The notes under the pieces are model-generated. The model saw only the letters and a list, made by a program, of their open reading frames with translations, was not told where the DNA came from and searched no databases. 43,894 nucleotides of DNA from a virus (Duplodnaviria > Caudoviricetes): the IMG/VR virus record IMGVR_UViG_3300030330_000362, positions 1 to 43,894 of that record, one strand, 5' to 3'. The stretch's first letter is position 1. The number at the start of each line of letters is the position of its first letter. Below, one piece after another: positions 22,476 to 43,260 of the stretch. Position numbers and translations under genes: made by a program.

Positions 22476-23645
22476 TTAGTTGAAAGCTGCAGGCTTTGTA
22501 GTTGTTCCTGCGAACAATTCTACTGAGGCAGCAGGATTTAAGAAATCTGCTCCCATAGCCATACGTCCCAATATCACGTCACCTTGGTAGACAACAGACA
22601 CATCTCCACTTGTTACTTGAACCTGTGGGCCGATTGTCTCGACTACACCAGCGGCCTCACGTTGGAAGATTAATCCACATGAGTTTGCAAAGTTACTTGC
22701 AGCACCGTAGTTCTGACGTGCACCGTAGTTGTTACCTGTTGCGGTGTTTGCTGTTTCAATACCCTCTGAAACCCATGAACCAGTATTTCCTGGATCTACT
22801 GTAGCAAGGTCAGTACCAGCAGAAGCACCTGAAGCGGGAGCATACTTAGTACCATACTTACTAAAGAATGGAATATTCATAGACTTGAAGATCTGAATAC
22901 CAGCTATCTCGATGATGCCGTTACCAGACTGCAATGCGTCGCCTCTTTCGTTACGATTGATTAGACCATTTGATTCAATGTTCTGTATCAAAGCGTAGTA
23001 TTGGCGAGGTGTCAATACAGCCACTCTACCATCCTCACTGACTCCTTTTTCGTCAAGAGCTGCAGCTGCGTCGTAGAACGCATTGATTAGGTGAGTTGAG
23101 TTGTAAGCGTCGTCTGCGTCAGATCCGCCACCAACTTGAATTTGAGTACCACCTGGCTCTACAAAGTTAGTCATACTAACTGGAGAAGCCTGTCTAGCAC
23201 CTTTAGCGATAGCTCTAAAAATTAGTCTATCATACTTTTGAGCAAGAGCATATCCAATCTTTCTGGAAATCTCTCCCCTCAATTCGTAATGTGAGAGTGT
23301 TTCATCTAGCTCATATACGAACGCACTAGAAATAAGGAGATCATCGACTGTGATTGTTTTCTCAGCTACTGGAGGTGCCTTCTGGTCATTACCTAGGATG
23401 GAATTTCCTGGAGTATGATACTCGGCTGTTGTGCGTCCAGTATAGATGAACTGTAAACTCTTACCGTTTGTGAGTGTTCTTTTTTGAACTAAATCTCTAG
23501 CTATTGTTTCTCTTTGGAAGCCAGTAAACATTTCTCCACTGAACAATTTTAGGTATAAATCCCTATTGTTAGTAGCGTTACCAGCACCGTTAATGCGACC
23601 CAGATTTAATTGTGAAGCTGGATCATTTGTTGACTGTTGTGCCAT
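22476..23645 (-). CDS. Major capsid protein (gp10)
   Basis: LYLKLFSGEMF...RTLTNGKSLQFIYTGR...EKTITVDDLLIS. Confidence 0.97.
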   Translation of the reverse strand: MAQQSTNDPASQLNLGRINGAGNATNNRDLYLKLFSGEMFTGFQRETIARDLVQKRTLTNGKSLQFIYTGRTTAEYHTPGNSILGNDQKAPPVAEKTITVDDLLISSAFVYELDETLSHYELRGEISRKIGYALAQKYDRLIFRAIAKGARQASPVSMTNFVEPGGTQIQVGGGSDADDAYNSTHLINAFYDAAAALDEKGVSEDGRVAVLTPRQYYALIQNIESNGLINRNERGDALQSGNGIIEIAGIQIFKSMNIPFFSKYGTKYAPASGASAGTDLATVDPGNTGSWVSEGIETANTATGNNYGARQNYGAASNFANSCGLIFQREAAGVVETIGPQVQVTSGDVSVVYQGDVILGRMAMGADFLNPAASVELFAGTTTKPAAFN

Positions 23646-23725
23646 TTTTCTAAAAAAATTTTAGGTATAAATTATCGTCTTATCACGTGAAAAGTTGCAA
23701 GTCTTATGCGACTCACTATGTTTTT

Positions 23726-23781
23726 GTGGTCTATCCCACCGTCTAGACGGCTTATGGGTATCCCCGTAGGGGCCAGAAGCC
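23726..23781 (-). promoter_or_regulatory. Structured 5' leader of the capsid gene
   Basis: GGCUU-c-UGG/CCA-u-AAGCC stem enclosing a CCCC-UACG-GGG hairpin, then CCGUCUAGACGG and GUGG-gauaga-CCAC. Confidence 0.55.
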
Positions 23782-23784
23782 AAT

Positions 23785-23834
23785 AGAGTAGGGAGGGATT
23801 GCACCTCCCAAGTCAACTATTTTTTGACTACTCT
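23785..23834 (-). ncRNA. tRNA-like element lacking a D-arm
   Basis: AGAGUAG/CUACUCU 7-bp stem, UCAA/UUGA arm with 7-nt loop, GGAGG-UGCAAUC-CCUCC T-arm. Confidence 0.5.
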
Positions 23835-23873
23835 TGTGTACTCAATGCCACGATATACGTAAGTTACAGTCAT
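23817..23873 (-). CDS. DUF4278-like YRG peptide (18 aa)
   Basis: MTVTYVYRGIEYTRVVKK; GGAG RBS; directly downstream of the riboswitch. Confidence 0.8.
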   Translation of the reverse strand: MTVTYVYRGIEYTRVVKK

Positions 23874-23885
23874 TGTAATCTCCAT

Positions 23886-23945
23886 ATACCCTAACCCCCG
23901 TTCCATGATTAGGTTGCATGCGTCCCATTAGGGATGAACGGACGT
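23886..23945 (-). promoter_or_regulatory. Glutamine-II (Downstream-peptide) riboswitch
   Basis: CCGUUCA-UCCC-uaau-GGGA-CGCA...CCUAAUC-AUGGAACGG-GGGUUAGG; CCGUUC/GAACGG pairing; followed by the YRG peptide typical of this family. Confidence 0.85.
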
Positions 23946-23948
23946 GGC

Positions 23949-24446
23949 TTAGTGAGGATCCATAACACCCTTGGGAAGATAACCGAGTTCACGTAATGAT
24001 CTAACTGAGGGATCACTTGTAACATTAGTGGGAAGTCGTCCAAGAGCGACATTATCAAAATTAAGTGTGTGTCTGTCAAATGTAGCCAATTCATATTCTT
24101 CAGTCATTGATAAACAATTTGTAGGGCAGTATTCAACGCAGTTACCACAAAAGATACAGGCTCCAAAATCTATAGAATAGTTACGAAGTTCTTTCTTTTT
24201 GGTTTCTTTGTTCATCACCCAGTCTACCACTGGAAGATTGATAGGGCATACTCTTACACAAACTTCACAGGCTATACACTTGTCAAATTCATAGTGTATT
24301 CGACCTCGATATTGTGTGGATGGTATTAGTTTTTCATAAGGGTACTGAACAGTGATTGGTTTTCTACCCATATGACTTAAAGTTACTGATAAACCCTGTA
24401 ACAAATGTTTGGCTGAGTCAATAGTATCTTTAATAAATTTATTCAC
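23949..24446 (-). CDS. ndhI: NDH-1 (photosynthetic complex I) subunit I, 2x[4Fe-4S]
   Basis: [11 protein letters not shown]...[23 protein letters not shown]...[22 protein letters not shown]; cyanobacterial type; GTG start. Confidence 0.97.
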
Positions 24447-24456
24447 TTAAAATAAA

Positions 24457-24582
24457 TTATAAAATTCCTGGGATTATCTGACCTGTAGCTGCATATGCAC
24501 CAACAGCTGCAACGAAACCTAACATTGCAAGGCGACCATTTAATAGTTCAGCCGTGTCCCATCTTGAGTGCTTGTGAGTCAT
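24457..24582 (-). CDS. hli: High-light inducible protein (41 aa; not in ORF track)
   Basis: MTHKHSRWDTAELLNGRLAMLGFVAAVGAYAATGQIIPGIL, with AExxNGRxAMxG and TGQIIPG motifs. Confidence 0.95.
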   Translation of the reverse strand: MTHKHSRWDTAELLNGRLAMLGFVAAVGAYAATGQIIPGIL

Positions 24583-24815
24583 CTCTTTCTTCGTTTGTGG
24601 TTGTAGTTAATTCGTTTTGAACTTGTTTTGGATTTACGAAATCTAGCACGTTCTTTACTAGACATCTCCGAGGAGGTCTTAGGGGTTTTAGACGAGACTC
24701 GCCTTGATGGTCTACAGGCAGGGTAGCCTTTACGGGTTTCGCCTTTCTGTCTTCCACATGGCTTACCAGTCTTAACGTCTACCCACTTCTCCTTAAACCA
24801 TCTTTTAAGACTCAT
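24579..24815 (-). CDS. Basic protein (LKRWFKEKW...CGR...YPACRP)
   Basis: ATGA overlaps at both ends; K/R-rich. Confidence 0.8.
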   Translation of the reverse strand: MSLKRWFKEKWVDVKTGKPCGRQKGETRKGYPACRPSRRVSSKTPKTSSEMSSKERARFRKSKTSSKRINYNHKRRKR

Positions 24816-24964
24816 TTTCCTACTTTCTTCATAGCTGCCTTATGTGCAGCTGTAAAAGTAGATCCACTTCTCATCATCTTCTTCATCATAGCCATGTGTT
24901 TAGCAGTGTGATGTTTCTGATGTTTTTTTAGAGTGGCTTCCTGTCTGGGTGTTAATTTAGCCAT
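24812..24964 (-). CDS. Basic His/Met-rich peptide (50 aa; not in track)
   Basis: MAKLTPRQEATLKKHQKHHTAKHMAMMKKMMRSGSTFTAAHKAAMKKVGK; TAATG and ATGA coupling. Confidence 0.75.
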   Translation of the reverse strand: MAKLTPRQEATLKKHQKHHTAKHMAMMKKMMRSGSTFTAAHKAAMKKVGK

Positions 24965-25131
24965 TACCTTTTTTTCTTTTTAGAGTAACCTTTGGCAGTT
25001 CTACGTTTACCGTCACTACCTTTGATCTTACCTTTACATACCTGTACGGCATAGCCGTTAGCGTATGCAGATGGGTAGACCTTAAACTTACGTTTAGCTG
25101 CGGCCTTACCTCTAGCACATAGTTTACCCAT
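24964..25131 (-). CDS. Basic peptide with YPSAYA motif (55 aa; not in track)
   Basis: MGKLCARGKAAAKRKFKVYPSAYANGYAVQVCKGKIKG...; TAATG coupling on both sides. Confidence 0.78.
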   Translation of the reverse strand: MGKLCARGKAAAKRKFKVYPSAYANGYAVQVCKGKIKGSDGKRRTAKGYSKKKKR

Positions 25132-25342
25132 TATTTACCTCCGTGTTTGCAGCCGCATTTGCTGTTTCCTTTTTTCTTTTTCTTTTTGTAGGCCATTTTT
25201 CTGGTTTCCATACTTCTACATCACATCCACATTCAGGACATGATAGAAAGGTTATCATACTATACTCATTGTGTAAGGGAGCATCTGAGTCACTTCCCCA
25301 GATAAGTTCTGTTTGACAATGCCAGCAGTTCAACACTTCCAC
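25124..25342 (-). CDS. Small zinc-ribbon protein
   Basis: CWHC...ELIWGSD...LSCPECG. Confidence 0.7.
   Translation of the reverse strand: MEVLNCWHCQTELIWGSDSDAPLHNEYSMITFLSCPECGCDVEVWKPEKWPTKRKRKKETANAAANTEVNNG
25131..25196 (-). CDS. Lys-rich micropeptide (21 aa; not in track)
   Basis: MAYKKKKKKGNSKCGCKHGGK; its stop overlaps the next ATG (TAATG). Confidence 0.55.
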   Translation of the reverse strand: MAYKKKKKKGNSKCGCKHGGK

Positions 25343-25578
25343 CTACGTAATGCCAATGCTTTACGGGTTGGCTTACCGTTTGGTTTTTTCATAGGGCCTT
25401 TTACACCCTTCATTCTAGCACAGAAAGAACGCTTCCTAGCACCTCCCCCTGGCTGTGGAGCCTTTAGGTTAGAGCCAGTGGCACGGTTGTACTTGGCTCT
25501 ACCTTTGGCTGTTAGGCCGCCTTTACGCGACTTTTCCCCTCTTCCGAGAGATAGGCTTACGCCCTTTCTTTTTGCCAC
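25330..25578 (-). CDS. Basic protein (GGLTAKGR...RKRSFCARM...LRRWKC)
   Basis: K/R-rich 82 aa with a motif familiar from marine phages. Confidence 0.8.
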   Translation of the reverse strand: MAKRKGVSLSLGRGEKSRKGGLTAKGRAKYNRATGSNLKAPQPGGGARKRSFCARMKGVKGPMKKPNGKPTRKALALRRWKC

Positions 25579-25684
25579 CTTTCTTAGTCCGTAATGCGAT
25601 CAGGTCAGCCCGATCTATTTTCTTTTTGTTACCAGCTAACGCAGCTAACTTTTTTTGCTTTGGTGAATAGCTAGAGTATGGCAT
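25523..25684 (-). CDS. Basic peptide (53 aa; not in track)
   Basis: MPYSSYSPKQKKLAALAGNKKKIDRADLIALRTKKGG...; TAATG-coupled to the upstream ORF. Confidence 0.65.
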   Translation of the reverse strand: MPYSSYSPKQKKLAALAGNKKKIDRADLIALRTKKGGKKKGRKPISRKRGKVA

Positions 25685-25760: not shown

Positions 25761-26609
25761 CTATACGTTTAGATTTGAAGCGGCTAGTTTTCTGAGAACA
25801 TCATCTCTGTATGCCTCGTCTGTGCGGTATTCAGGTTTAGCCATGTCCCTAGTTACCTCAGCCATACTCCTGTATCGTTCAGGAGCAGACTCTTTTCCTG
25901 TAATTAGTTTTGAATCTCTACCGTTAGCTTCTTCGTATTGTCCCATAAGTGCTTTAACTGCAAATGATATAGCTGATTTGTTTCCTGTTGCCAAGACATC
26001 ATCATAGTTTTTAGCATCCTGTTCAGATAAATTATTACCCGCCCAAGACATCAGATTATCGTACCCCTTTTCACCGCCAGCAATATTTTTTAATTCATTA
26101 ACTTCGGCATCAGATAAAGTAGATTGTTGAGGTGTTTGACCTAGCTGTGATTTTAGACCACTGAGGTATGAGTCTACTAAATCTCTATTTAAACCAGCTG
26201 ATTCTAATTGATCGTACATATCATCAGACAATGTACCATTATTTTCAGCAAAATATTTATTCATTTCCCAAGGATCTATCTCATTAGATTTAAAAAGATT
26301 TCCTATTTGATCGCCATACAATTCGTTGACGGTTTCATAATTAACTTGGTCATCATTGGTGTACATCCTCTCTTCATAGTTTGGTGTATCATCAACTTGA
26401 GGTTCGGGTTCAGATTGAGAACCTTGTTTCTTTTGTAATTCTAAGTATGCTTTTTCTAAATCTTCTGGAGTTTTATATTTACCAGCTAATAAGTTTTCTT
26501 GTTTTTCAACAAGTTCCTCACCAACTTTTAAAGATTCTGCATCTCTGGCCTCTGCAGCTGCAATAGCCTCTGGGTCATTTGATGGATCATAGGTGAATGT
26601 TTCTGCCAT
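25761..26609 (-). CDS. Capsid scaffolding protein (gp9)
   Basis: Acidic; LLAGKYKTPEDLEKAYLELQKK; AGGEKGY..LMSWA; MAKPEYRTDEAYR. Confidence 0.93.
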   Translation of the reverse strand: MAETFTYDPSNDPEAIAAAEARDAESLKVGEELVEKQENLLAGKYKTPEDLEKAYLELQKKQGSQSEPEPQVDDTPNYEERMYTNDDQVNYETVNELYGDQIGNLFKSNEIDPWEMNKYFAENNGTLSDDMYDQLESAGLNRDLVDSYLSGLKSQLGQTPQQSTLSDAEVNELKNIAGGEKGYDNLMSWAGNNLSEQDAKNYDDVLATGNKSAISFAVKALMGQYEEANGRDSKLITGKESAPERYRSMAEVTRDMAKPEYRTDEAYRDDVLRKLAASNLNV

Positions 26610-30776: not shown

Positions 30777-31492
30777 TTAGGTGTCCAAAGAATAGGTTGT
30801 TGAAGATCATGGTCGTAGTCTTCTGTACGTAAAATTCTAGCCAAACGTGCATTGAGCAAAGCGTCATCGTCTGATAACCCTCTATCTCTATATGCTTGAC
30901 ACACTGCATCCCATTTAGATTCGGACTTGTTTAACAGAGCTGTAGCTCGCTTGACTCCTATTCCTGGGCAACCAGAGTACCCATCTGTGGGGTCGCCAGC
31001 AAGGCTTTGAATAAGGTGCCAATCATCGGCTTGCTCTAGTGTAATCTCCTCCACTTCGTCAGCCATGTTCCATAGAACACAGGGGATTTGCTTCATGTCT
31101 TTGTCTGGACTAACGATAATGTTACTAGGGTCAGGATATTTAGTTGCCTCAATACCTATGGCATCGTCAGCTTCAAGATCCTCCATCATAACAAATCTAT
31201 AGTTTTCACTACAATAGTTTACTAGACGTTTGTAACCTAATGGTTTACGTTTCTGTCTATGACCTTTGTAGTCAGGAAAAATTTTCTTCCTAAAATTCTT
31301 GTGGTCTGAGAAATATAAGATGATGTCGTCATCCATCATTGCTGAAGTAACTTTATCCAGCTCTGTTTGAAAAACTTGTAGTACGTCACTGAACTGTGAC
31401 TGAGCTACTATAACATCCTCTCCAAAATCTATACCAGTTTCGCATACTTGCGAGGCTTTGTAAGCCAAGAAGTCGCAGTCAATTAGTAGCAT
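30773..31492 (-). CDS. 5'-3' exonuclease (gp6)
   Basis: LLIDCD; NFRK...YKGHR; LEADD; SPDKDMKQIP; GDPTDGYSGCPGIG. Confidence 0.95.
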   Translation of the reverse strand: MLLIDCDFLAYKASQVCETGIDFGEDVIVAQSQFSDVLQVFQTELDKVTSAMMDDDIILYFSDHKNFRKKIFPDYKGHRQKRKPLGYKRLVNYCSENYRFVMMEDLEADDAIGIEATKYPDPSNIIVSPDKDMKQIPCVLWNMADEVEEITLEQADDWHLIQSLAGDPTDGYSGCPGIGVKRATALLNKSESKWDAVCQAYRDRGLSDDDALLNARLARILRTEDYDHDLQQPILWTPK

Positions 31493-32763
31493 TAGTGTAC
31501 CTCGGCCCAGTTGTTACCAATGTTTGCATCGGCTTCAATGGGAATACGTAAATTGTAAAACTCTCCAGCTAGTATTGCAGATAGTTTACATACCTCAGCA
31601 ATATACTTTGCTTGTTCTGTAGGAGCTCCTAAGACTTGTTCATCATGCACGAAGGCATAACGCTCATGTTCAAAATTACTCATACGTAGGTTGTGATCTG
31701 TTATCAAAAGCCAACGTTTTGCTAAGACTGCAGCGGATCCCTGTAACAGAAAGTTAAGGGCTTTGTGTTCTTTGTCCACTCTAATGTTGCGTCTGTCAAT
31801 GGCACGTATTGTACCCTTCTCAGCAACCTTCCGAGTAGCGTTGACAAGGCTTTCCAGCCCAGGAATTGCCTCCATGTATGCCTTTCTGATCTCTGCTCCT
31901 TTCTTTGCAGCAGCATCTGGGGACAGCATGTTGTCGTATGACAAGCCTAGTTTTTGGTTGCCCCCTCCGTAGAGAAAACAATATGTAATAGTCTTGACCT
32001 GACGACGGCTAATACCTATCTTGTCAGCGTTTACCTGATGGATGTCATCCTCAAGTAATATTTTAGCATACCTTCCACCGTCGTAACGGGCAAGGTAGTG
32101 TGCAAACAGCCTAAGTTCAATTCCTGCAAGGTCACTGTCAACCAGTTTCCATGTAGGTTTTGTAATAAATAGCTCACGGCAGTCCTTGTCTGAACTAACT
32201 TGTGCCAGATTTGGATGTGAGTGTGCCATACGGTGCGTGGCAGCCCCTATAAAACAGGAGTGGTGAAGTCTGCCATCCTTGACCAACTTCAACCATGCGT
32301 TAGTTCCTTGTGATAACATTCCAAGTTTCTTTTGTGTTTCAAGAATCTCGAGAAATACCAACGCTTCTTTTGTACCAATTTCTTTGAGAACAGTCTCATC
32401 AATAACTGCTTTACCAGTCGGTGTGAATTTGTTTGGTTTCCAATTCTGATTAGTCTTGAACCACCAAGCAATATGCTCTCTGCTACTAGGATTGAACTCC
32501 TTTAACCGTTGCATTTCTGCACCAGCTATGTAGCCTTGTTTCTTGTTATCACGCCTTGGCGTAAACAAATTTCCTGGGACACACCAGCACATACTTTCAG
32601 CACTGTGCCTGAGTTCTTCCAGTCTTTTTAGTAAAGTGTTTTCTAGTTGTTGTGCTTTGGATATGTCAAAAGGCCAGCCTGTAGTCTTTTGATTAGCCAT
32701 AAGCTCTGCTATGTCATGTTCTAGTCTGACGCTAGCAACAACTTTTTGCGGAAATGCGTCCAT
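31492..32763 (-). CDS. DNA polymerase A, polymerase domain (C-terminal half of gp5)
   Basis: DSDLAGIELR (motif A), RRQVKTITYCFLYG (motif B), FVHDE (motif C). Confidence 0.95.
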   Translation of the reverse strand: MDAFPQKVVASVRLEHDIAELMANQKTTGWPFDISKAQQLENTLLKRLEELRHSAESMCWCVPGNLFTPRRDNKKQGYIAGAEMQRLKEFNPSSREHIAWWFKTNQNWKPNKFTPTGKAVIDETVLKEIGTKEALVFLEILETQKKLGMLSQGTNAWLKLVKDGRLHHSCFIGAATHRMAHSHPNLAQVSSDKDCRELFITKPTWKLVDSDLAGIELRLFAHYLARYDGGRYAKILLEDDIHQVNADKIGISRRQVKTITYCFLYGGGNQKLGLSYDNMLSPDAAAKKGAEIRKAYMEAIPGLESLVNATRKVAEKGTIRAIDRRNIRVDKEHKALNFLLQGSAAVLAKRWLLITDHNLRMSNFEHERYAFVHDEQVLGAPTEQAKYIAEVCKLSAILAGEFYNLRIPIEADANIGNNWAEVH

Positions 32764-33284
32764 AATTTTGCGACAATAGCAACGTCTTGTTTACAGTAGT
32801 CCTCCATTTCAGGAGTCCATTCTTTCCAATCAGAGGTCTTCCCATAGTCTCCTTTATGTAAGTTTAAACGAAAACCATAAGCCTCGAGACTGTGTGATCC
32901 ATACAACTTAGCTGGCATCATAGGCCACCTACGTCTGAGATCAATGTCCATTAGGTCAGAGTAAAAGTAACGACTGAGAATCAATGTGTCCCAGTGTGTA
33001 GGATTACAATTAAAAAATGGAAAATGTTTTTGTATCTGTGGTACATCAAACATCACACCGTTATGAGATACAATGTTTGTGCAAATATCAAGAGTACAAA
33101 CGCCATTTACAACTGAGTTGGTAAGTGTTTGGTCATTGAATGATTCAACTATACCGTTGTTTAGGTCTTGTAAAACCATGCAATGTATCTCAGTTGAGTC
33201 GATACCGTTTGTTTCTATGTCAAATGCTACGTCCAAGTCACCCGAAGTCTGTCGTCGGGTCAAAGTGTTGTTCGGTAATTGCAT
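32721..33284 (-). CDS. DNA polymerase A, 3'-5' exonuclease domain (N-terminal half of gp5)
   Basis: FDIETNG (ExoI), HNGVMFD (ExoII), YCKQDV (ExoIII); ends at TAG 32721. Start ATG 33284 or TTG 33236. Confidence 0.92.
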   Translation of the reverse strand: MQLPNNTLTRRQTSGDLDVAFDIETNGIDSTEIHCMVLQDLNNGIVESFNDQTLTNSVVNGVCTLDICTNIVSHNGVMFDVPQIQKHFPFFNCNPTHWDTLILSRYFYSDLMDIDLRRRWPMMPAKLYGSHSLEAYGFRLNLHKGDYGKTSDWKEWTPEMEDYCKQDVAIVAKLWTHFRKKLLLASD

Positions 33285-42095: not shown

Positions 42096-42107
42096 CCGCC
42101 TGAACTA

Positions 42108-42136
42108 ACTATAGACCGCATGAAAGAGTTTGTCAA
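42108..42136 (-). promoter_or_regulatory. Strong sigma70 early promoter
   Basis: TTGACA-17 nt-TATAGT. Confidence 0.85.
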
Positions 42137-42388
42137 GGTATTTTATCAAATGCTAACATTTGTCTAGTTGGCTAGAAACAAACTCTAGTAAGTAATTGGT
42201 TAGCGTCCGTTTGTATTCCCACACAGTCCCACTAGATTCCTGGGCCCTCAAGCCCGACAGAATTGGTGGTAACGCTCCCTGATCGCCAGTGACGTATGCC
42301 CGTAGCATATTGTCCGTTTAACTAATTGGTTGAGCTGTACTCTAGTTCTAAGCTAGAGCCCCCGTGTTTGGTTTTGTTTGATACCTTT

Positions 42389-42417
42389 ATATTATATGGT
42401 ATCTTGTAAGGGGTCAA
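42389..42417 (-). promoter_or_regulatory. Sigma70 early promoter
   Basis: TTGACC-17 nt-TAATAT (TATAAT at 15 nt). Confidence 0.55.
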
Positions 42418-42489
42418 TCTTGTTGTTACATTTAGTAATAATTGACTTTTGTTGTTTTGCTGGTGTGACCTCTTTAGGTGTATGTATTC

Positions 42490-42517
42490 AATATAGCTAC
42501 CTATTCGAGAATGTCAA
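42490..42517 (-). promoter_or_regulatory. Sigma70 early promoter
   Basis: TTGACA-16 nt-TATATT. Confidence 0.55.
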
Positions 42518-42894
42518 GTATGTTTTAATTTGCTGACATTTGGTGTTTGATAGCCTATAAATAATTACACGCAGGGTAAACCGACGATTGTGGCCTATTG
42601 GGTTTTGGGCCATAGTACAAGTGTACTAAATATAGGTATTTGTACTCATATAATCCGAGCTTATGTATTATTTGTTACATATAAGCATTTCTTATATATG
42701 GGCCTTCAGTCTCAGCTGGTTCCTTATTTTTTCATAAGTATTTTTAATGTATTAAATAATATAAGTAAATATACTCGGCCCCACGGATAGTGCAACAATA
42801 TGTTAGTAAACCCATAAATAGCACAACAGATGGCCCCGCATGCCTTTAGAGGTTTTGCATAGGTCGGTTAACCGTACCCAGGTTTTGACGTTTT

Positions 42895-42923
42895 AGGGTA
42901 TCACATCCCCGCGAGTCTGTCAA
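42895..42923 (-). promoter_or_regulatory. Sigma70 early promoter
   Basis: TTGACA-17 nt-TACCCT with TG extension. Confidence 0.55.
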
Positions 42924-42965
42924 GTGTGCCAAACATTAAAGTGTCCACCAGGTATGCCCCCCCGC

Positions 42966-42993
42966 GTTATACCATAAATTTTTTATATGTCAA
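42966..42993 (-). promoter_or_regulatory. Sigma70 early promoter
   Basis: TTGACA-16 nt-TATAAC with TG extension. Confidence 0.6.
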
Positions 42994-43236
42994 GAGTATA
43001 AATACCTATATGTCAGGATATACGCACAAGGGGCCCCTCGGGGGTAATCGCAAGTACGCTGCGTATGAATACCGTATGAAAAATTTTACCAAAATCTAGA
43101 CACCCCTGTAAGACACCCACGTACTGCACTAGGTACCTTAGAGGGTGGTGTAGATGTTGGCTCCAGCAATCGGGGGACTGGAGGGGCTAATGCCCCCCCT
43201 TGACCGCTGTTTCCACCCACGAGGAGCACCACTTCC

Positions 43237-43260
43237 CCGTGTATTATGGTAACGTTGCTC
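43237..43260 (-). promoter_or_regulatory. Candidate phage-RNAP promoter just after terL (phi-OR-like position)
   Basis: Exact 24-bp copy of 37243..37266. Confidence 0.55.

What the first reader, a model, noticed from the sequence alone, without database searches (positions are those of the whole stretch)
23949..24582. Podovirus carries ndhI with hli in the slot normally holding psbA
Seen: an intact cyanobacterial-type NdhI with both CxxCxxCxxxCP clusters lies 10 nt downstream of hli, between scaffold and capsid. No psbA or talC is recognisable anywhere in this complete genome. Known: P-SSP7-type podoviruses typically carry psbA and hli here, and NdhI is an Fe-S subunit of the ferredoxin-oxidising arm of NDH-1 that drives cyclic electron flow. 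Viral ndhI has been reported mainly from metagenomes and PSI-gene myovirus cassettes. Inference: this phage supports ATP production through cyclic flow or respiration rather than PSII repair, a different metabolic strategy for a T7-like cyanophage.
Basis: partly seen in the sequence, partly recalled or inferred. Interest (0 to 1): 0.85.

Follow-up and report, generated by a model that had tools for sequence, protein, structure and literature searches.

The report
Remodelled NdhI subunit spreading among cyanopodoviruses
Small T7-like ocean viruses of cyanobacteria carry their own shortened version of the host electron-transport subunit NdhI, in which one near-invariant residue is changed, and they likely plug it into the host's NDH-1 complex to sustain energy supply; it usually travels beside the photosynthesis gene psbA, so its standing alone in this virus is likely a gene-shuffling outcome, not a new strategy.

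Summary
Observation confirmed: an intact 165-aa NdhI lies 10 nt behind hli, between scaffold and capsid, in a complete T7-like cyanophage without psbA, talC or thyX; a contig from an independent run bridges the junction. The 'ndhI instead of psbA' reading is not supported. Of 19 public loci with this NdhI type, 16 show upstream DNA: 15 carry psbA there, and the exception is this same virus. psbA-less hli islands are common among close relatives (16 of 34), and a conspecific contig has room for neither gene. The ndhI-riboswitch block is 90-94% identical to a distant phage while its flanks are about 72-83% identical to relatives: a swapped-in cassette. The real find is the podoviral NdhI type itself. 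It keeps eight cluster cysteines and the ferredoxin-binding lysines under purifying selection (dN/dS 0.02-0.08), lacks the C-terminal tail, and has ER>TQ at residues 44-45 (8 of 8, against 0 of 144 host and other viral sequences). That arginine aligns with human NDUFS8 Arg94, an NdhH-equivalent contact. No paper on podoviral ndhI was found, but three key 2011 papers were not read. The scan earlier noted ndhI only in other, myovirus-like genomes. Function is untested.

The parts
25761..26609 (-). T7-like capsid assembly (scaffold) gene, upstream border of the island
   Evidence: PF05396, phrog_1052
24579..25684 (-). Six small ORFs, five of them very basic, including DUF6321 (25330-25578) and DUF5872 (24579-24815); four of the six recur in relatives' islands
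24457..24582 (-). hli, high-light inducible protein, 41 aa
   Evidence: phrog_178 E 3.7e-19; PF00504
24447..24456 (-). 10-nt spacer; resembles both the bases after hli in psbA-less relatives (L134, L135) and the last codons of psbA in L267; likely the left recombination joint (short and AT-rich, so only suggestive)
23949..24446 (-). ndhI, podoviral type: 165 aa, GTG start, N-terminal helix 7 residues shorter than in hosts, no C-terminal tail
24312..24317 (-). Codons for Thr44-Gln45, replacing the Glu-Arg of hosts and other viruses
24243..24278 (-). First 4Fe-4S motif CxxCxxCxxxCP (residues 57-68)
24192..24209 (-). Ferredoxin-binding hairpin lysines K80, K83, K85 (= T. elongatus K86, K89, K91)
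24123..24158 (-). Second 4Fe-4S motif CxxCxxCxxxCP (residues 97-108)
23889..23943 (-). Glutamine-II riboswitch aptamer, downstream of ndhI; a fixture of the island, also present in relatives without ndhI
   Evidence: RF01704, 53.2 bits over 33, E 3.1e-10; 9 of 9 podoviral ndhI loci
23817..23873 (-). 18-aa peptide ORF behind the riboswitch, with a YRG motif; resembles the DUF4278/IF17-like peptides (resemblance recalled; a 20-aa stretch covering it had no Pfam match)
22476..23645 (-). Major capsid protein gene, downstream border of the island
   Evidence: PF21703, phrog_267

Best explanation
This is a podovirus-specific, shortened NdhI with a fixed Glu-Arg to Thr-Gln change, carried as a cassette that likely moves by recombination within the hli-to-riboswitch slot of T7-like cyanophages and is likely built into the host's NDH-1 complex, where it would pass electrons from ferredoxin towards plastoquinone and so sustain ATP supply during infection. 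Shown: the gene, its clusters and lysines, purifying selection, the mosaic identity pattern, and co-occurrence with psbA in the other carriers. Inferred: this virus took up the ndhI-riboswitch block from a psbA-ndhI donor without psbA, into a psbA-less background (loss of psbA from a three-gene island is not excluded). Inferred: the protein is made, assembles with host NdhH/K/A, and the TQ change and lost tail retune rather than abolish docking (for example easier exchange against the host subunit). The host is likely Prochlorococcus (nearest cellular NdhI, AT-rich codons; not shown directly).
For: Intact clusters and K80/K83/K85 (residues named in PMC7021789 passages). Pairwise dN/dS 0.02-0.08 in the 18 of 28 podoviral pairs with unsaturated dS, synonymous sites saturated in the other 10; window against L267: 22 synonymous, 5 non-synonymous codons. 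N-terminal amphipathic helix, which anchors NdhI to NdhA/L (PMC6992706 passages), is kept though 7 residues shorter. Tail loss has a precedent: Arabidopsis plastid NdhI (172 aa, offset 7) ends at the position of residue 165. Mosaic: ndhI 94% and riboswitch region 90% nt identical to L267, whose capsid is 73% and scaffold 31% identical in protein, while flanks match relatives at about 72-83% nt; L113 has the same psbA-riboswitch join as L267 without ndhI; psbA+ndhI state is not clustered on the capsid tree (6 changes for 7 rows, 130 of 500 shuffles as low). The myoviral P-TIM68 NdhI is annotated 'confirmed using proteomics'.
Against: Arg45 is kept in 144 of 144 host and other viral sequences, 120 of 120 near homologues and 93 of 129 distant representatives, and the aligned human Arg94Cys lowers complex I activity to 18% by disturbing the NDUFS8-NDUFS2 interface (PMC9783039 passages), so docking may be impaired. 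No listed RNA contig carried this ndhI allele beyond pieces under 50 nt in four RNA-library runs that do hold neighbouring genes of this virus species (one of them shows a strain without ndhI, so this is weak). No ribosome-binding site is evident before the GTG. Two window-specific changes hit conserved sites (Y14H, R29K). With the TQ pair masked the podoviral sequences split into two groups, so single origin rests partly on that pair. One extra subunit of a large multi-subunit complex need not be rate-limiting.
Confidence: 0.55

Rival explanations
1. Decoy or brake: the podoviral NdhI binds ferredoxin and clusters normally but, lacking the conserved arginine at the NdhH-facing loop, docks poorly or forms a less active NDH-1, which would throttle cyclic flow and leave reduced ferredoxin for NADPH and nucleotide synthesis.
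For: ER>TQ is fixed in 8 of 8 distinct podoviral sequences despite saturated synonymous sites and absent from 401 host-family genomes, 371 of which show ER; both residues need multi-base codon changes; the aligned human residue is a disease site at the NdhH-equivalent interface; ferredoxin-binding lysines are untouched.
Against: The rest of the protein, including surfaces that serve only inside NDH-1 (N-helix, loops after the second cluster), is held under strong purifying selection; 36 of 129 distant relatives also lack the arginine; the gene usually travels with psbA and hli, which support electron flow.
Confidence: 0.25
2. Passenger here: functional in psbA-ndhI phages, but in this genome a recently swapped-in, weakly translated hitchhiker of little effect.
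For: Conspecifics differ at the slot; no evident ribosome-binding site; Y14H and R29K are window-specific; no RNA contig of the allele was listed.
Against: Frame intact; 22 synonymous against 5 non-synonymous changes from the nearest donor type; the ndhI-bearing form occurs in runs of at least two studies, years 2014 and 2025.
Confidence: 0.12
3. One reading: ndhI replaces psbA as an alternative strategy, ATP by cyclic flow or respiration instead of PSII repair.
For: This genome has ndhI and no psbA, talC or thyX, unusual against cultured clade B phages (PMC4646655 passages); the junction is real.
Against: 15 of 16 loci with visible upstream DNA have psbA plus ndhI; only this one virus has ndhI alone; islands with neither gene are common.
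Confidence: 0.06
4. Assembly artefact: psbA dropped out, or host DNA was joined in.
For: The window's ends differ at 3 of 187 overlapping bases, so the assembly mixes strains; no listed contig spans the whole island.
Against: The hli-ndhI junction is bridged in an independent run; the gene is of the viral type, 82-86% identical to the best host proteins but 95-97% to other podoviral copies.
Confidence: 0.02

Closest known systems
ndhI of cyanomyoviruses P-TIM40 (KP211958) and P-TIM68 (KM359505)
   Same: Single NdhI subunit carried by a Prochlorococcus phage; 88-89% identical; clusters and ferredoxin hairpin intact
   Different: T4-like 190-kb genomes; they keep Glu-Arg and the C-terminal tail; neighbours are speD/cpeT or a PSI cassette followed by psbA-psbD; no T7-like phage is among the 12 records of 50,697 with a close (80-90%) match
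Scaffold-capsid island of clade B T7-like cyanophages (P-SSP7: gp9-hli-psbA-gp28-gp10)
   Same: Same location and hli gene; capsid 69% identical to P-SSP7 and 73% to S-SBP1
   Different: No psbA; ndhI present; no talC or thyX; extra small basic ORFs
Cyanobacterial NdhI of NDH-1 (T. elongatus 6HUM chain I; Prochlorococcus NdhI)
   Same: E 1.7e-86 over residues 3-165; N6a/N6b cysteines, K86/K89/K91 equivalents, N-helix
   Different: No C-terminal tail (hosts 17-49 aa more), N-terminus 7 aa shorter, ER>TQ
Glutamine-II (Downstream-peptide) riboswitch with DUF4278/IF17-like peptide of marine picocyanobacteria
   Same: RF01704 match followed by a short YRG peptide
   Different: Phage-borne; lies behind ndhI, so it would control the peptide, not ndhI; it is common in the island regardless of ndhI

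Membership tests
Cyanobacterial-type NdhI (NDH-1 subunit I) | Two CxxCxxCxxxCP 4Fe-4S motifs | tested here: met
   Residues 57-68 and 97-108
Cyanobacterial-type NdhI (NDH-1 subunit I) | Family model score over curated cut-off | tested here: inconclusive
   NF004537 and TIGR01971 pass; TIGR00403 298.2 against 302.35, a near miss with the model's ends unmatched (10-172 of 183)
Cyanobacterial-type NdhI (NDH-1 subunit I) | Basic hairpin that binds ferredoxin (K86, K89, K91 in T. elongatus) | tested here: met
   K80, K83, K85
Cyanobacterial-type NdhI (NDH-1 subunit I) | N-terminal amphipathic helix | tested here: inconclusive
   Aligned but 7 residues shorter than in hosts; the predicted model was unusable
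Cyanobacterial-type NdhI (NDH-1 subunit I) | Glu-Arg in the PSERYRG loop (a conserved trait, not a curated criterion) | tested here: not met
   Thr-Gln here and in 8 of 8 podoviral sequences; ER in 144 of 144 others. Hence filed as a variant
Cyanobacterial-type NdhI (NDH-1 subunit I) | Assembles into NDH-1 and carries electrons from ferredoxin to N2 | not testable with these tools
   Needs complementation and biochemistry
T7-like cyanophages, clade B (MPP-B) | T7-like core: RNA polymerase, primase/helicase, DNA polymerase A, portal, scaffold, capsid, tail tube, nozzle, terminase | tested here: met
T7-like cyanophages, clade B (MPP-B) | Phylogenetic placement in clade B (DNA polymerase tree) | not tested
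   Only capsid similarity: best cultured matches at 67-73% include P-GSP1, S-RIP2, P-SSP7 and S-TIP37, several listed as clade B in PMC4646655 and PMC9381782 passages
T7-like cyanophages, clade B (MPP-B) | psbA and hli in the island ('nearly all' members; typical, not defining) | tested here: not met
   hli present, psbA absent; same state in 16 of 34 related islands
Glutamine-II riboswitch RF01704 | Covariance model score over gathering threshold | tested here: met
   53.2 bits against 33, full model 1-60
Glutamine-II riboswitch RF01704 | DUF4278 ORF downstream | tested here: inconclusive
   18-aa YRG peptide present; no Pfam match for a 20-aa stretch covering it

The most novel reading that the evidence does not exclude
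T7-like cyanophages have evolved their own NDH-1 modulator: an NdhI that keeps the ferredoxin dock and both clusters but has fixed a substitution at a near-invariant NdhH-contact arginine (the equivalent of human Leigh-syndrome site NDUFS8 Arg94) and shed its tail, so that it rewires or throttles host cyclic electron flow instead of merely topping it up; it spreads as a plug-in cassette across divergent podoviruses.
Probability: 0.25. Interest if true: 0.8.

Novelty: new variant of a known kind. Interest (0 to 1): 0.5.

Why it matters
Viral ndhI was known from myoviruses and metagenomes, and whether it differs in function from the host protein is stated as open (PMC10452541 passage). A podoviral form with exactly two diagnostic residue changes and a lost tail gives a clean, testable handle on that question and on what the conserved arginine does in photosynthetic complex I. 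It also shows that the hli-riboswitch slot of T7-like cyanophages is a swap site (empty, psbA, psbA+ndhI, ndhI alone, a 2OG-Fe(II) oxygenase-like gene), so presence or absence of psbA in one genome should not be read as a strategy. Several carriers have no canonical start codon, so gene callers may truncate or miss it.

Tried and rejected
AlphaFold model of the protein: mean pLDDT 37, unusable; no fold search was run on it. No complex prediction was sent: NdhI-NdhH is a solved pair, would pass by likeness and could not judge a two-residue change. A scan of the viral collection for the hli-ndhI junction itself was not obtained, so the count of ndhI-only loci rests on the motif scans. The stop-plus-riboswitch pattern gave 11 loci: 5 already-known podoviral ndhI contigs and 6 with no match to any of the 20 query genes, dropped. 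Careful NdhI tree did not finish; quick trees only; monophyly of podoviral NdhI had support 93 unmasked and was not recovered with the TQ pair masked (some tails were left untrimmed in that run). Donor not resolved: with TQ masked all viral sequences lie on one side of an 85-support branch. A psbA-NdhI fusion by +1 frameshift in the carriers without a start codon was considered and set aside, because the D1 C-terminus is lumenal and NdhI cytoplasmic (recalled). RNA-library contigs gave no cover of this ndhI allele beyond short conserved pieces; this is no evidence of silence. A sigma-70-like site inside ndhI follows from codon choice and the region has no excess over shuffles (5 found, 5.5 expected). 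No paper on mutation of the matching arginine in E. coli NuoI was found (0 papers). Sharon 2011 and Philosof 2011 were not held; Alperovitch-Lavy 2011 was seen only as a reference line.

Full report
Observation. The window is a circularly complete T7-like cyanophage genome: the ends overlap by 187 nt with 3 mismatches inside the terminase gene, and the T7 core genes are all found. On the minus strand the order is scaffold (25761-26609), six small ORFs, hli (24457-24582), a 10-nt spacer, ndhI (23949-24446, GTG start, 165 aa), a glutamine-II riboswitch (23889-23943, 53.2 bits), an 18-aa peptide ORF (23817-23873) and the major capsid gene (22476-23645). P-SSP7 has gp9-hli-psbA-gp28-gp10 here. psbA, talC and thyX families give no match in the genome, and tblastn with a relative's D1 gives best E 0.86. 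The junction is real: of 4 runs laid, X7 has a 369-nt contig over 24120-24488 with 2 differences and no gap, X1 and X3 have identical contigs starting at 24421, and X12 has no cover there. X7 is of another study and year than X1 and X3, which, like L269, may be the window's own data.

Is ndhI a substitute for psbA? No. In 50,697 phage records, 12 had a close match (80-90%): P-TIM40 and P-TIM68 (two records each) and 8 unannotated AG-345 single-cell viruses whose context I did not examine. In IMG/VR, 176 stretches encoded a relative; of the best 80, 9 lay among T7-like structural genes. A pattern for the residues peculiar to these 9 found 11 loci in IMG/VR and 8 in metagenome contigs. Of these 19, 15 show T7-like structural genes and 4 are too short to tell. 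Three are cut inside ndhI. Of the 16 with upstream DNA, 14 have a psbA match directly in front, L005 has only the last psbA codons before the contig ends, and one (L269) is this virus. The loci are not dereplicated; the 9 first loci and the window gave 8 distinct proteins. One cluster of >=98% identical capsids holds psbA+ndhI, psbA-only and neither. In run X16 a 908-nt contig with 9 differences over 24578-25105 joins to the riboswitch at 23947; by my arithmetic from the table about 190 nt lie between, room for an hli but not for ndhI or psbA (the tool marks the letters between as not known). L081, 99% identical in the capsid gene, also differs upstream of about 23780.

How the arrangement likely arose. 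The ndhI gene is 94% and the riboswitch region 90% identical in DNA to L267, whose capsid (73%) and scaffold (31%) proteins are distant, while scaffold, DUF5872, hli and capsid match their best relatives other than this virus at about 72-83%. L113 has the same psbA end and riboswitch as L267 with no ndhI between. In psbA-less relatives hli is followed directly by the riboswitch, or by a 2OG-Fe(II) oxygenase-like ORF (L106; below cut-off in both libraries), or by a 44-aa ORF. On a quick capsid tree of 44 rows the psbA+ndhI state needs 6 changes for 7 rows, no fewer than shuffles give (130 of 500 as low). I infer a cassette that moves by recombination between the end of hli or psbA and the conserved riboswitch/pre-capsid sequence. 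The 10-nt spacer resembles the psbA end of L267 and the bases after hli in L134, which fits a short-homology crossover but is too short to prove it. The tree does not fix the direction: the window's sister group has 10 rows with neither gene, 6 psbA-only and 1 with both.

The protein. It has both cluster motifs and lysines K80, K83, K85, which align with the ferredoxin-binding K86, K89, K91 of T. elongatus (PMC7021789, passages; PMC6992706, passages, places the hairpin and the N-helix). Among 8 distinct podoviral sequences dN/dS is 0.02-0.08 in 18 of 28 pairs and dS is saturated in 10. Three things set it apart. First, all 10 podoviral copies examined end at or one residue after DPH, whereas 73 other viral copies have 12-30 and 80 host copies 17-49 further residues; the riboswitch follows within a few bases in 8 of 9 and about 100 nt later in L004. 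Arabidopsis plastid NdhI ends at the same position, so the tail is probably dispensable. Second, the window's subgroup has lost 7 N-terminal residues. Third, residues 44-45 are Thr-Gln in 8 of 8 podoviral sequences and Glu-Arg in 65 of 65 other viral and 79 of 79 host sequences, in 120 of 120 listed near homologues (1,962 were found, 120 listed), and by DNA pattern in 371 of 401 genomes of the host family, with Thr-Gln in 0 of 401. Against this, only 93 of 129 distant representatives that cover the site keep the arginine, so it is not universal. Gln45 aligns with residue 60 of mature mammalian NDUFS8 (5LC5 chain I), which is Arg94 of the 210-aa precursor (offset 34 read from the table; that this is human numbering is recalled, and it fits Arg77, Pro79 and Pro85 named in the paper). 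PMC9783039 (passages) lists homozygous Arg94Cys with complex I at 18% of normal and an impaired NDUFS8-NDUFS2 interface; NDUFS2 corresponds to NdhH (established knowledge). Quick trees put the podoviral sequences in one group with support 93, but in two groups (93 and 95) when the pair is masked, both on the viral side of an 85-support branch (48 rows, thinned from 152). Single origin and donor are therefore open.

Mechanism. Most likely (0.55) the protein is made from the island together with hli, inserted into host NDH-1, and relays electrons ferredoxin-N6a-N6b-N2-plastoquinone, supporting proton pumping and ATP; the TQ change would retune the NdhH contact. Only the sequence features are shown; expression, assembly and effect are inferred. 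The main rival (0.25) is a decoy or brake that binds ferredoxin but docks poorly. Four RNA-library runs hold contigs of this species' capsid or island genes, but none listed carries this ndhI allele beyond pieces under 50 nt. The riboswitch lies behind ndhI and is present without it, so it would govern the small peptide (PMC6212724, passages), not ndhI.

Known or new. Viral ndhI is known from metagenomes and P-TIM40 (PMC10452541, passages; PMC3877843, passages; PMC12801897, passages). Searches for ndhI with cyanophage, podovirus, T7-like, cyanopodovirus or NDH-1 terms (listings seen) showed no paper placing it in a podovirus, and a 2025 survey of marine Autographiviridae has no 'ndh', 'nuoI' or 'NADH' in its main text (PMC12361551, term search; supplements not seen, and they may list it). 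PMC4646655 and PMC9381782 (passages) state that all or nearly all clade B phages have psbA. Sharon 2011 and Philosof 2011 were not held and Alperovitch-Lavy 2011 was not read; they could show podoviral scaffolds. The scan's own notes hold three ndhI cassettes in other genomes, described with myovirus-type neighbours, and none for the words ndhI, podovirus, psbA, capsid, island. Interest 0.5.

Noticed in passing
L005:11, L006:571, L007:5980, L016:5980, L021:5980 (start of ndhI): In one podoviral subgroup ndhI has no canonical start: a GTT that overlaps the psbA stop codon sits exactly in the column of the host's Met1, with an in-frame stop just before it. Suggests coupled initiation at a non-canonical codon; gene callers would truncate the protein.
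   Followed up: partly
L004:1499-1728: A group I intron (RF00028, 99.9 bits) splits the major capsid gene of a podovirus after about 30 codons.
   Followed up: partly
window 24579-25684: Five very basic small ORFs (50-82 aa, including DUF6321 and DUF5872) and a Cys-pair ORF between scaffold and hli; several are 75-99% conserved in relatives; function unexamined.
   Followed up: no
L106:3905-4480, L137 after hli: A 2OG-Fe(II) oxygenase-like ORF (below curated cut-offs) occupies the slot between hli and the capsid; in L106 the riboswitch seems absent.
   Followed up: partly
L007:6681-7046 (similar ORFs in L005, L006, L016, L021): Cyanophage outer-membrane beta-barrel gene (PF24653, E 9e-38) behind the riboswitch peptide in the GTT-start subgroup.
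   Followed up: no
window 31492-33284: DNA polymerase is in two overlapping ORFs, exonuclease (32721-33284) and polymerase (31492-32763); not checked whether split gene or frameshift.
   Followed up: no
window 42096-43259: No talC or thyX behind the terminase, where cultured clade B phages have one or the other; L016's contig does carry talC.
   Followed up: partly
window 23720-23790: A short intergenic stretch before the capsid gene is nearly invariant across distant podoviruses; no Rfam match; possible phage promoter or recombination anchor.
   Followed up: no
window 24051-24079 (-): An 11-of-12 sigma-70-like site inside ndhI about 110 nt upstream of the riboswitch; probably a by-product of codon choice.
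   Followed up: no
L242: A genome bin titled Pimelobacter simplex carries a cyanobacterial NdhI that groups with Synechococcus sequences; probably contamination of the bin.
   Followed up: no
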